63,402 bases of DNA, filler included, from Dimargaris cristalligena (GCA_003614675.1; 29 parts of 29 records of this genome joined end to end with filler, not necessarily neighbours in it); one strand, 5' to 3'. Positions 17,670 to 19,771 are shown, counted from the whole stretch's first letter. Numbers and translations are program-made. The notes: generated by a model from the sequence alone, not told the origin.

Positions 17670-19771
17670 AAAAAAAACTGGTTATACCAGAAAAAAAAGC
17701 CACTTCATACCCTGCATAATAATAATAATAGTAATATAATTAGTGTGGCTTATAGGGGGACAGTACACCTTGCCACATCCACCCCCTCAGTTGAAGAACT
17801 GGATTCAGAAACTGGATTTTGGTAATAGAATTTCTTCAGTCGGTCTCCATTAACTCTTGGATATCTTGGGGTTCCATCTAGTTCAGCTAGAGCGTATAAT
17901 CCATTCTCATTGATGTCCAGGATCTTGTAAGGGCCCCTCCAGCAATTGTCAAACTTCCTAGACCATTGCTTATCCAAGGAAGAATCATATTCGAGGACAA
18001 TATCATGAATTACTAAAGGTTCTTGATGAATTCGGGCTTGGCCATCAAAGGTTTCCTTATTCTTAAATCTGGCATCTTCTAATAAGGCAGCTGCTAGATC
18101 AACAGTAGTGCCCATGGCTTCGATTTGGTGAGTTCTGGCTAAAAGGAGTTCATTTGTAGTCATATTTTTATAAAAATCCTAAGACAACCAAGTTTCCAAG
18201 TTAAATTCCACAGGTAATAGGCATTCATGGCCGTACAATAGATAATAGGGGCTAAATCCAAAGGTAGTTTTAGCAGTAATCCTATCTGCCCATAATGCTG
18301 AGTGTAAAAAGTCAGGCCAATTCTGTGGATTCCTACTGGCTTTAACAATTAAATCTACCAGTGGGCCATGACCACACTCTACTATCCCATTTGCCTAGGG
18401 ATAATATGATGTTGTTAAGTTCAGGCTAATTCTATATTTTTCCAGGAGGTCTTTGATTAGACTTGAGTTCATTTCACCCCTATCAGCGACGAATTTTCCA
18501 ACTGGACCAAACCTAGTGATAATGTCTTCCTTGAGAAAAGCCGCCACTTGTTTAGCCCCATTCTTGGTTAGGGCTCTGGCTTCAGCCCAGCCACTAAGGT
18601 CATCTCTAGCTACAACTAGGTAACAGTAACCCTTTGGACTTTTAGGCATGTGCACTAAATTGACGCCTACTTTGTGCCAAAGTACTGGTGAATGTGTTAG
18701 GTGTAGAGGCTCCTTGAATTGATTCCTGGCCCTTTTTTGACAAATCTCATAAGTCTGGATATAAGATTTTAAGTCCTGGTAGAAATCCTTCCAAAAATAC
18801 CGTAAGTTTAGTTTTATAAAGTAGGTTTCAATCCCTTTATATCCACCTCCCTCACCCTCATGTATTTCTTTCAGGATTTCCAACTGCTTTCCTTTATCAC
18901 AGATTACCCTTCGAGGTATAGTTCCTGGATGTCCATGGTGAAATAAATGGCCATTCCTGAGGGAGTATGCAGCAGCCTTGGCCTTGAACCTACGGAATTC
19001 TCTTGCCCCTAGGCCTGGTAGCCTTTGTAAAGTTGATAAATAGTGTCCAATTTGTGTCATTTCCTGATTATAGTCTTGTTTAGGGAAGTTGATAGTCTGA
19101 TCCGAATTTTCTGGCTGTAGATTGGTTGTTCTGGGTACCTCAGTGGATAGTACGTATACTCTAGTGGCAGTCTTGTCCTTGCCTTGGATAGTAGAGATAT
19201 GGTGAGCTTCCAAAAATTCGTCAAAGTCAGATTCACCATCAGAATTTGGTATATTTGCTCTTGACAATCCATCAGCAACCACATTATCAGACCCGGGGAT
19301 ATGTTTTAAGTCAAAATCAAACATCCTCAACCAAGTCAGCCAGCGGTTTACAGCTGCATCAGGAAGGTCCTGCTTATTCAGCATCCCAATTAAAGGTTTA
19401 CAATCAGTTTCCAGGATAAAATGGACTCCATAAACAAAAAACCGAAGTTTTTTGACCATTTTGACCATTCCTACTAATTCCCTTTTTACCTGAGCATATC
19501 TGCGCTCAGTAGGAGTGAACAAAGTAGACTCAAATCTACAGGCATAGCGATTGCCTTGCTCATCTTCCTGTCCCAAAATGGCACCAGCCCCGATTGGGCT
19601 AGCATCAACAGTTAAATAAAGGACGCGATTTTTGTCACCGTATACTGGATTCTGTAGGATAGGTGATGTATTGAGTTCCCCCTTAATTAGGTCCATTGCT
19701 GCTTGTTGTTCTGCGCCCCAGTGGAATTCCTGATCTTTCTTTTGTAGGCGGTATATGGGTTCCATTTTGAC
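17670..19771 (-). mobile_element. Ty3/Gypsy pol 3' half, copy A (disrupted)
   Basis: Near-identical to 52681-54746 but with stops, including CAG>TAG in HPQANG, and His/Cys>Tyr changes in the integrase zinc finger. Confidence 0.95.

What the first reader, a model, noticed from the sequence alone, without database searches (positions are those of the whole stretch)
17670..19771. RIP-like dual CpG and CpA hypermutation between two copies of one Gypsy element
Seen: a by-eye alignment with copy B (52681-54746) gives about 48 substitutions, about 41 of them transitions. Roughly 17 are at CpG and 15 at CpA/TpG, mostly in copy A, creating a stop in HPQANG and destroying zinc-finger residues. One ancestral CpG (motif WADR) became TG in A and CA in B. 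Housekeeping genes in the window stay CpG-rich. Established: RIP targets CpA in Pezizomycotina and TpCpG in some basidiomycetes; ordinary 5mC decay explains mainly CpG. Inference: if the host is an early-diverging fungus, this points to a little-described repeat-targeted mutator or non-CG methylation system.
Basis: partly seen in the sequence, partly recalled or inferred. Interest (0 to 1): 0.8.

Follow-up and report, generated by a model that had tools for sequence, protein, structure and literature searches.

The report
Decayed Gypsy copy in Dimargaris fungus
Two short contigs of an early-diverging fungus carry one dead and one intact copy of the same Gypsy retrotransposon, and the dead copy's damage is mostly C-to-T change, most often at CpG and next at CpA, which looks like methylation-linked decay and hints at, without showing, a RIP-like defence.

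Summary
A (17706-19768) and B (52681-54743) align ungapped over 2063 nt, with 48 differences, 41 of them transitions. The frame does not hold: the window is 29 contigs of about 2.1 kb, sorted by length and joined by N/TTAATTAATTAA spacers. A and B are therefore separate contigs, not neighbours.

A BMS1 fragment in the window is 100% identical to a protein labelled Dimargaris cristalligena (Zoopagomycota). The nearest named relatives of the element are from Smittium.

Contigs from other runs and 40 protein homologues show that A is the decayed copy, with 42 of the 48 changes. Its C>T rates per site are CpG 13/78, CpA 13/274, CpT 4/272 and CpC 2/253. CpA against CpT+CpC gives OR 4.3, p=0.003. 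The same ranking appears in other repeats of the window.

Features specific to RIP fail. B is almost untouched, the changes do not cluster by strand, and the RIP index is negative. A is also a mosaic: every one of its changes lies in 1196 nt.

Best reading: repeat-targeted cytosine methylation (CG plus weaker CA) followed by deamination. A RIP-like mutator is not excluded. No DNMT search or methylation data was possible.

The parts
17670..19771 (-). Piece 9 of the window: a whole short contig, 'copy A'. It carries the 3' part of a Ty3/Gypsy pol (RNase H, integrase zinc finger, integrase core).
   Evidence: Bounded by spacers on both sides. tblastn of the B protein gives 94.9% identity over 672 aa.
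17753..19768 (-). Broken pol reading frame of copy A. It has stops at codon 458 (18395-18397, Q>*) and codon 530 (18179-18181, Y>*), plus H310Y, C340Y and D370N.
   Evidence: At 26 of the 34 amino-acid differences the 40 homologues favour the B state.
17888..19083 (.). Diverged core of A. It holds all 42 A-derived changes and 5 of the 6 B-derived ones (3.9% divergence).
18404..18636 (.). A 233-nt stretch inside the core with no difference from B.
   Evidence: Permutation P=0.004 for a gap this long.
19084..19768 (.). A 685-nt flank of A identical to B except at 19523, where B alone departs. A further 182 identical nt lie at 17706-17887.
   Evidence: 0 of 200000 permutations give flanks this empty, and the context-weighted Poisson P is 1.5e-6.
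18287..18288 (.). A CpG hit twice. The ancestral CG is TG in A and CA in B (53262-53263).
   Evidence: The X5 main contig has G at 53263. 39 of 40 homologues have Ala at codon 494.
52681..54746 (-). Piece 25: a whole short contig, 'copy B'. It is close to the abundant, intact form of the element.
   Evidence: Contigs of 5765 and 5398 nt in runs X1 and X2 match it with 1 difference.
52725..54743 (-). Open 672-aa frame of B (stop included): RT_RNaseH, Integrase_H2C2 and rve domains.
52681..52749 (.). End segment downstream of the pol stop, at very high depth. It is probably the start of the LTR or another very abundant repeat. Related copies lie at 17671-17777 and 24002-24108.
   Evidence: Depth is about 30000-36000, against 338-3400 for the interior, in X1, X2 and X5. 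The related copies come from the self-BLAST.
46167..46719 (-). N-terminal 184 aa of BMS1 on piece 22, used to place the host.
   Evidence: 100% identity to an NCBI protein labelled Dimargaris cristalligena; the next hit is Dispira simplex at 72%. CpG observed/expected for the piece is 1.01.
21100..21710 (+). Reference copy of an older repeat family of about 600 nt. The 12 copies or fragments used start at 3839, 8968, 21100, 22640, 27490, 28208, 28855, 29451, 34497, 34793, 42242 and 50587. The family served as a second test of the mutation spectrum.
17570..17669 (.). One of the 28 spacers (N44 + TTAATTAATTAA + N44) that join unrelated contigs. Others flank A and B at 19772-19871, 52581-52680 and 54747-54846.

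Best explanation
A and B are two paralogous copies of one Ty3/Gypsy retrotransposon of Dimargaris cristalligena (or a very close relative), each caught on its own ~2.1 kb contig. B is close to the abundant, still-intact form. A is a rare, dead copy. A's differences are unselected decay dominated by cytosine-to-thymine change, roughly 15 times background at CpG and 4 times at CpA. The most likely mechanism is that the fungus methylates cytosines in its repeats, mainly at CG and more weakly at non-CG (CA) sites, and that 5-methylcytosine deaminates spontaneously over time in silenced copies. Shown here: the spectrum, its polarity, its neutrality, its recurrence in other repeats, and CpG depletion limited to repeat contigs. 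Inferred: methylation itself, its CA component and the enzyme responsible. A's mosaic structure (mutated core, pristine flanks) is best explained by gene conversion from intact copies or by a chimeric contig.
For: Polarity. In runs X1, X2 and X5 the main contigs carry the B state at all A/B sites except five where B is derived (52868, 52997, 53097, 53263, 53639; four at CpG, one at CpT) and 54498. The 40 homologues favour the B state at 26 of the 34 amino-acid differences, the A state at 4, and neither at 4. Neutral decay. There are 35 nonsynonymous and 13 synonymous differences, codon positions are 16:19:13, and the nonsynonymous fraction expected for C>T changes is 0.62-0.76. A has two stops and has lost catalytic residues. 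Spectrum on the A branch. There are 32 C>T, 4 T>C and 6 transversions. Per-site C>T rates are CpG 13/78, CpA 13/274, CpT 4/272 and CpC 2/253. CpG against CpA gives p=0.001, and CpA against CpT+CpC gives OR 4.3, p=0.0026. Recurrence. In 27 other repeat pairs, after removing 30 TG/CA double hits, the rates are CpA 121/388 against CpT 49/630 and CpC 46/517. In a 12-copy older family polarised by majority, the rates are CpG 0.51, CpA 0.25, CpT 0.10 and CpC 0.105. Private changes in that family are CpA 12/47 against 11/272 at CpT+CpC. Repeat targeting of the CpG part. CpG observed/expected is 0.03-0.58 in transposon-like pieces and 0.88-1.01 in gene pieces 1, 8, 21, 22, 28 and 29, including the BMS1 piece. 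Real copy. A 112-nt contig of run X5, from another study, carries all five A states between 53326 and 53378, at depth 178 against 3151 for the B-type. Published context. CpG-biased decay of methylated transposons is described in basidiomycetes, and a dual CpG+CpA signature in Tuber melanosporum (PMC4352252, passages). A review cites Dim-2-type enzymes in early-diverging fungi (PMC7862722, passages).
Against: No methylation data and no DNMT inventory were available: no genome is held, and no paper was found on 5mC in Kickxellomycotina. [quoted passage not shown] The six young changes (five derived in B, one shared by A and B against X5) are 5 CpG, 0 CpA and 1 CpT, against 13:13 CpG:CpA on the A branch (Fisher p=0.058). 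That could mean the CpA component is episodic rather than clock-like. The sharply bounded core is not what uniform slow decay predicts unless conversion or chimerism is added. The counts are small (13 CpA events), and the other-repeat pairs are not independent of one another. That the transposon contigs belong to Dimargaris, and not to a co-cultured organism, rests on run labels and on the nearest named relatives being Smittium. No transposon-gene linkage was shown.
Confidence: 0.5

Rival explanations
1. A RIP-like, homology-triggered mutator (a DNMT-like or deaminase enzyme acting on duplicated DNA, perhaps before meiosis) hit copy A in one or a few episodes, with preference CpG > CpA.
For: The bias towards C>T is strong: 32 of A's 42 changes, and 36 transitions against 6 transversions. 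CpA is the second target, as in the dual CpG/CpA signatures ascribed to RIP in some Ascomycota (PMC4352252, passages). The changes sit in sharply bounded blocks instead of along the whole copy. The young changes lack CpA events, 5:0 against 13:13, p=0.058. The transition/transversion ratio differs greatly among repeat pairs: 41:7 for A/B and 28:5 for the 9365 pair, but 9:8 and 7:8 for the two piece-7 pairs. Four old repeat pieces (13, 14, 20, 27) have a positive composite RIP index. RIP-index signals have been reported in another Zoopagomycota group, with caveats (PMC11105155, passages).
Against: B has only 6 changes against 42 in A, and the intact B-type is about 18 times deeper than the A-type in X5 and is the only form in the X1/X2 contigs. 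The family as a whole therefore escaped. There is no strand clustering: 19 runs against 17.0 +/- 2.8 expected. The composite RIP index is -0.45 for A and -0.44 for B, and a gene piece (28) also scores above 0. CpG, not CpA, is the top target. A kingdom-wide k-mer screen found RIP-like signatures only in Ascomycota (PMC12543289, abstract and section 9). RID could not be searched for.
Confidence: 0.2
2. This is a genome-wide context effect, not targeted at repeats. In this fungus CpA (like CpG) is simply more mutable everywhere, and the repeats show it because they are unconstrained.
For: Gene pieces also have rather low CpA/TpG (0.84-0.95) and rather high TpA (0.96-1.08) observed/expected values. 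No single-copy neutral comparison was available to exclude this reading.
Against: CpG depletion is clearly limited to repeat pieces, so at least the CpG part is targeted. The spectrum differs among repeat pairs, which a uniform background does not predict.
Confidence: 0.15
3. This is largely an artefact. Contig A is a chimeric or erroneous assembly product, or carries amplification damage, so the spectrum is not that of one real genomic copy.
For: The assembly is highly fragmented. A is a mosaic of B-identical and diverged blocks. No A-type contig appears in X1 or X2.
Against: Five consecutive A states occur together on a contig of a run from a different study. Damage would not prefer CpG and CpA on both strands. 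Chimerism would dilute the spectrum of the diverged blocks but would not create it. Other repeats show the same ranking.
Confidence: 0.07
4. The changes are editing of the retrotransposon cDNA by an APOBEC-like deaminase during reverse transcription.
For: The changes are C>T-dominated and lie in a retroelement.
Against: Editing of one cDNA strand would give changes on one strand only. Here the 32 C>T changes split 16:16 between strands.
Confidence: 0.02

Closest known systems
Methylation-linked CpG decay of transposons in fungi (basidiomycetes such as Microbotryum, Puccinia and Melampsora; Tuber melanosporum)
   Same: C>T changes are concentrated at CpG in repeat copies, while genes keep their CpG. 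Tuber shows CpG as the main signature and CpA as the secondary one (PMC4352252, passages).
   Different: The host is a Zoopagomycota fungus, for which I found no report. There is no TpCpG preference: ACG 4, TCG 3, GCG 3, CCG 3. The CpA component is large, about a quarter of the CpG rate per site.
Repeat-induced point mutation (RIP) of Neurospora crassa and other Pezizomycotina
   Same: C:G to T:A transitions in duplicated DNA make stops and kill a transposon copy, and CpA is a preferred context.
   Different: CpG ranks above CpA. One copy is hit and the other nearly spared. There is no strand clustering. The RIP index of A and B is negative. The host lies outside Dikarya. RID was not tested.
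RIP-index signals reported in Entomophthorales (Zoophthora radicans and others)
   Same: The phylum is the same (Zoopagomycota), and the question is the same: whether RIP exists outside Dikarya (PMC11105155, passages).
   Different: That report rests on composition indices of 1-kb windows. Here the evidence is polarised, alignment-based substitution counts, and the composite index itself is negative for A and B.
Ty3/Gypsy elements of Smittium (Harpellales, Kickxellomycotina)
   Same: The domain order is the same (RNase H, H2C2 zinc finger, integrase core), and these are the nearest named relatives.
   Different: Protein identity is only 42-48%, so this is a distinct lineage. No close relative (best 40-43% identity over most of the query) turned up in the protein collection.

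Membership tests
Ty3/Gypsy LTR retrotransposon | pol with RNase H followed by integrase (H2C2 zinc finger + rve core) in one frame | tested here: met
   PF17917/PF17919, PF17921 and PF00665 match in that order in the 672-aa frame of B.
Ty3/Gypsy LTR retrotransposon | Reverse transcriptase upstream of RNase H, and long terminal repeats | not testable with these tools
   Both contigs end inside the element. Homologues carry PF00078 upstream.
Canonical RIP | C:G to T:A transitions predominate in duplicated DNA | tested here: met
   37 of the 48 differences are C>T-type: 32 in A and 5 in B.
Canonical RIP | CpA is the preferred dinucleotide | tested here: not met
   CpG 13/78 exceeds CpA 13/274 (p=0.001). 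CpA is second, 4.3 times CpT+CpC.
Canonical RIP | Both members of a duplicate are mutated | tested here: not met
   42 changes are derived in A and 6 in B. The B-type is the abundant form.
Canonical RIP | Mutations cluster by strand within a copy | tested here: not met
   19 runs among 16 plus-strand and 16 minus-strand changes, against 17.0 +/- 2.8 expected.
Canonical RIP | Composite RIP index above 0 (TpA/ApT minus (CpA+TpG)/(ApC+GpT)) | tested here: not met
   A is -0.45 and B is -0.44. The index is positive only in old repeat pieces 13, 14, 20 and 27 and in gene piece 28.
Canonical RIP | RID/Masc1-type methyltransferase in the genome; premeiotic timing | not testable with these tools
   No genome is held for this window.
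Basidiomycete-type TpCpG hypermutation | Preference for T 5' of the mutated CpG | tested here: not met
   ACG 4, TCG 3, GCG 3 and CCG 3 among the 13 A-derived CpG changes.
5mC deamination decay of methylated repeats | CpG is the most mutable site, and CpG depletion is limited to repeats | tested here: met
   The rate at CpG is 16.7% per site, against 0.8-4.7% elsewhere. CpG observed/expected is 0.03-0.58 in repeat pieces and 0.88-1.01 in gene pieces.
5mC deamination decay of methylated repeats | 5-methylcytosine and a cytosine methyltransferase are present | not testable with these tools
   No genome and no methylation data. No paper holds both 'Kickxellomycotina' and '5mC'.

The most novel reading that the evidence does not exclude
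Dimargaritales, an early-diverging lineage outside Dikarya, has a repeat-triggered C-to-T mutator with preference CpG > CpA that strikes individual transposon copies in bounded tracts. In that case RIP-like genome defence is either older than Dikarya or evolved a second time.
Probability: 0.2. Interest if true: 0.8.

Novelty: new member of a known kind. Interest (0 to 1): 0.42.

Why it matters
RIP has been shown by experiment only in Dikarya. A 2025 kingdom-wide screen found RIP-like signatures only in Ascomycota (PMC12543289, abstract and section 9). A polarised, alignment-based C>T spectrum with a clear CpA component in a Zoopagomycota fungus would extend either non-CG methylation of repeats or RIP-like mutation to a lineage where neither is described. 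I found no paper on cytosine methylation or RIP in Dimargaris or Kickxellomycotina. The question is directly testable on public genomes of the species, with a methyltransferase inventory and methylation calling. On present evidence, though, the pattern fits ordinary decay of a silenced copy, and the sample is small.

Tried and rejected
- **Whole genome:** none is held, so there was no search for RID, DIM-2, DNMT1 or DNMT5 and no genome-wide transposon consensus.
- **Earlier notes of the scan:** nothing found.
- **RNA evidence:** no RNA holder was listed for B.
- **A-type in other runs:** X1 and X2 contigs show no A-type variants, and X5 shows them only at 53326-53378. Contigs drop rare variants, so this is not evidence that A is absent there. 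X6 (organism B) holds only 409 nt plus an end segment at depth 2.8-5, and I did not interpret it beyond its states at 52868 and 52997.
- **First count on other repeat pairs:** rejected, because adjacent TG/CA double hits at decayed CpGs were being scored as CpA events. It was redone without them.
- **Private-change test in the older family:** it rests on only about 7-9 conserved CA/TG columns, so its p-value is weak.
- **Extended motif at CpA:** none found. CA[A/T] against CA[G/C] gives p=0.24, with no CHG (CAG) preference.
- **Linking transposon contigs to host genes:** Pfam on 10 further frames gave only one more integrase and a CobW_C fragment, so no link was made.
- **Protein searches with B at 'near' and 'longer' lengths:** no protein labelled Dimargaris and no Mucorales hit.
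- **The GC-rich 695-aa frame:** no close relative in prokaryote genomes. The origin of pieces 17-19 stays open.
- **cDNA editing and amplification damage:** both rejected (see rival explanations).
- **Supplementary tables:** closed, so DNMT surveys of fungi that might list D. cristalligena could not be seen.

Full report
**What the window is.** The window holds 56 runs of 44 N. They form 28 spacers of the type N44 + TTAATTAATTAA + N44. The 29 pieces between them fall steadily in length from 2115 to 2062 nt, and their G+C content ranges from 0.34 to 0.63. The window is therefore a string of short contigs sorted by size, not a stretch of chromosome. 'Copy A' (17670-19771) and 'copy B' (52681-54746) are each one whole contig. 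The distance between them, and their nearness to the 'housekeeping genes in the window', mean nothing. No whole genome is held for the window.

**The observation.** Self-BLAST gives a single ungapped match of 17706-19768 to 52681-54743: 2063 nt with 48 mismatches. Of these, 41 are transitions.
- If every transition is read as C>T, my hand tally of the listing gives 17 at CpG, 15 at CpA/TpG, 6 at CpT and 3 at CpC.
- B has an open 672-aa frame on the minus strand with RNase H, H2C2 zinc-finger and integrase-core domains.
- In that frame A has two stops (HPQANG becomes HP*ANG; Y530*), plus H310Y, C340Y and D370N.
- The 'WADR' site is confirmed: A reads WADR and B reads WVDR.

**Host.** The BMS1 fragment on piece 22 is 100% identical to an NCBI protein labelled Dimargaris cristalligena. 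The next hit is Dispira simplex at 72%. This places at least that contig in Dimargaritales (Kickxellomycotina, Zoopagomycota), an early-diverging lineage and not Pezizomycotina.

The best relatives of the element's protein are only 40-43% identical over most of its length. The nearest named ones are from Smittium, also Kickxellomycotina. There are no Mucorales hits and none labelled Dimargaris.

That matters because this species is a mycoparasite grown with a Mucorales host (PMC6784888, passages). Foreign contigs are therefore possible. Pieces 17-19 (G+C 0.62-0.63, with a DUF932 match) look different in composition, and I could not place them. Assigning the transposon contigs to Dimargaris is well supported but not proven.

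**Polarity.** Contigs of four public runs were laid on B.
- X1 and X2 hold 5.4-5.8 kb contigs equal to B except at 54498.
- X5 comes from another study. Its main contigs carry the A-copy state at 52868, 52997, 53097, 53263 and 53639. B is therefore derived at those sites (four at CpG, one at CpT). At every other A/B site X5 carries the B state.
- A minor 112-nt X5 contig (depth 178, against 3151 for the B-type) carries all five A states between 53326 and 53378. A is thus a real but rare variant.
- As an independent check, 40 homologues favour the B state at 26 of the 34 amino-acid differences, the A state at 4, and neither at 4. The 4 include codon 494, where B is derived.

Altogether 42 changes are derived in A and 6 in B. 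The differences are 35 nonsynonymous to 13 synonymous and are flat over codon positions (16:19:13). This matches the 0.62-0.76 nonsynonymous fraction expected without selection. A is a dead copy decaying neutrally.

**Spectrum.** On the A branch there are 32 C>T, 4 T>C and 6 transversions.

| Context | C>T changes / sites | Rate |
|---|---|---|
| CpG | 13/78 | 16.7% |
| CpA | 13/274 | 4.7% |
| CpT | 4/272 | 1.5% |
| CpC | 2/253 | 0.8% |

- CpA against CpT+CpC gives OR 4.3, p=0.0026. CpG against CpA gives p=0.001.
- There is no TpCpG preference and no extended motif at CpA.

**Is it general?** Other repeats in the window show the same ranking.
- In 27 non-overlapping repeat pairs of at least 80% identity, I first removed 30 TG/CA double hits, which are decayed CpGs and had inflated my first count. 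The unpolarised transition rates are then CpA 121/388, CpT 49/630 and CpC 46/517. These pairs reuse the same families and are not independent.
- In a 12-copy older family polarised by majority, the C>T rates are CpG 0.51, CpA 0.25, CpT 0.10 and CpC 0.105.
- Private changes in that family are CpA 12/47 against 11/272 at CpT+CpC, from only a handful of conserved columns.
- CpG observed/expected is 0.03-0.58 in transposon-like pieces and 0.88-1.01 in gene pieces, including the Dimargaris BMS1 piece. At least the CpG component is therefore aimed at repeats.

**Tests specific to RIP.**
- B is almost untouched, and the intact form is by far the more abundant.
- The 32 C>T changes split 16:16 between strands, with 19 runs against 17.0 +/- 2.8 expected.
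- The composite RIP index is -0.45 for A and -0.44 for B. It is positive only for old repeat pieces 13, 14, 20 and 27, and also for gene piece 28, which shows the index is not specific.

These results speak against canonical RIP. Some points keep a RIP-like reading alive:
- All 42 A-derived changes lie in 17888-19083. The 867 nt of flanks have none (0 of 200000 permutations; context-weighted P=1.5e-6).
- A 233-nt stretch inside the core is also clean (P=0.004).
- The six young changes are 5 CpG, 0 CpA and 1 CpT, against 13:13 CpG:CpA in A (p=0.058).
- Transition/transversion ratios differ greatly among repeat pairs.

The mosaic could be gene conversion, a chimeric contig or patchy mutagenesis. 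I could not tell which.

**Literature.**
- A kingdom-wide k-mer screen reports RIP-like signatures only in Ascomycota (PMC12543289, abstract and section 9 read).
- RIP-index signals in Entomophthorales were reported with caveats (PMC11105155, passages).
- CpG-only signatures in basidiomycetes, and CpG plus CpA in Tuber, are described in PMC4352252 (passages).
- A review says fungi lack DNMT3 and cites Dim-2 in early-diverging fungi (PMC7862722, passages).
- 13 papers hold both 'Dimargaris' and 'methylation'. None of the 11 listed is on cytosine methylation or RIP in Dimargaris, judged from titles and abstract starts. No paper holds both 'Kickxellomycotina' and '5mC'. Supplements were closed.

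**Verdict.** The most likely cause is decay of a silenced transposon copy by deamination of methylated cytosine, at CG and more weakly at CA (confidence 0.5). A RIP-like mutator (0.2) and a genome-wide context effect (0.15) remain open. It is worth a whole-genome follow-up, but on present evidence it is a new member of a known kind.

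Noticed in passing
whole window; spacers such as 2116-2215 and 17570-17669: The window is an artificial chain of 29 contigs of about 2.1 kb in falling order of length, joined by N44+TTAATTAATTAA+N44 spacers. Any inference from the order or distance of features across pieces is void.
   Followed up: yes
35250-41711 (pieces 17-19): Three contigs have G+C 0.62-0.63, CpG observed/expected 0.98-1.33, long intron-free frames (a 695-aa frame with a Slo-like RCK domain; a DUF932 match) and many overlapping open frames. 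Their composition is unlike the rest, so they may come from another organism. No close relative was found in prokaryote genomes.
   Followed up: partly
30861-32954 (piece 15): The composition is odd: G+C 0.37, TpA observed/expected 0.54, CpA/TpG 1.28, composite RIP index -1.26. There is a weak match to the mitochondrial resolvase Ydc2 family. The piece may come from a different genome or compartment.
   Followed up: no
52681-52749, also 17671-17777 and 24002-24108: The roughly 70 nt downstream of the pol stop stand at depth 30000-36000, against 338-3400 for the element's interior, in three runs. The segment is about 10-90 times more abundant than the element body. It is probably an LTR start shared by many copies or solo LTRs.
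   Followed up: partly
53589 (= 18614 in A): A and B share A after C (CA) where the main contig of run X5 has G (CG). This is either a CpG>CpA change common to both copies in this strain, or a sign that this stretch of A was copied from a B-type element.
   Followed up: partly
57311-57619: About three tandem copies of a 113-nt unit (75-90% identity) lie in an AT-rich, CpG-poor contig.
   Followed up: no
6641-8752, 13266-15367, 22074-24171: There are fragments of other, distantly related Gypsy-type integrases (23-31% identity to B at protein level), all on CpG-poor contigs. Several retrotransposon lineages are present.
   Followed up: partly
13297-13775 against 27641-27865 and 43719-43892: Two repeat pairs of about 91% identity have as many transversions as transitions (9:8 and 7:8), unlike A/B (41:7). 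The C>T excess is therefore not uniform among repeats.
   Followed up: partly
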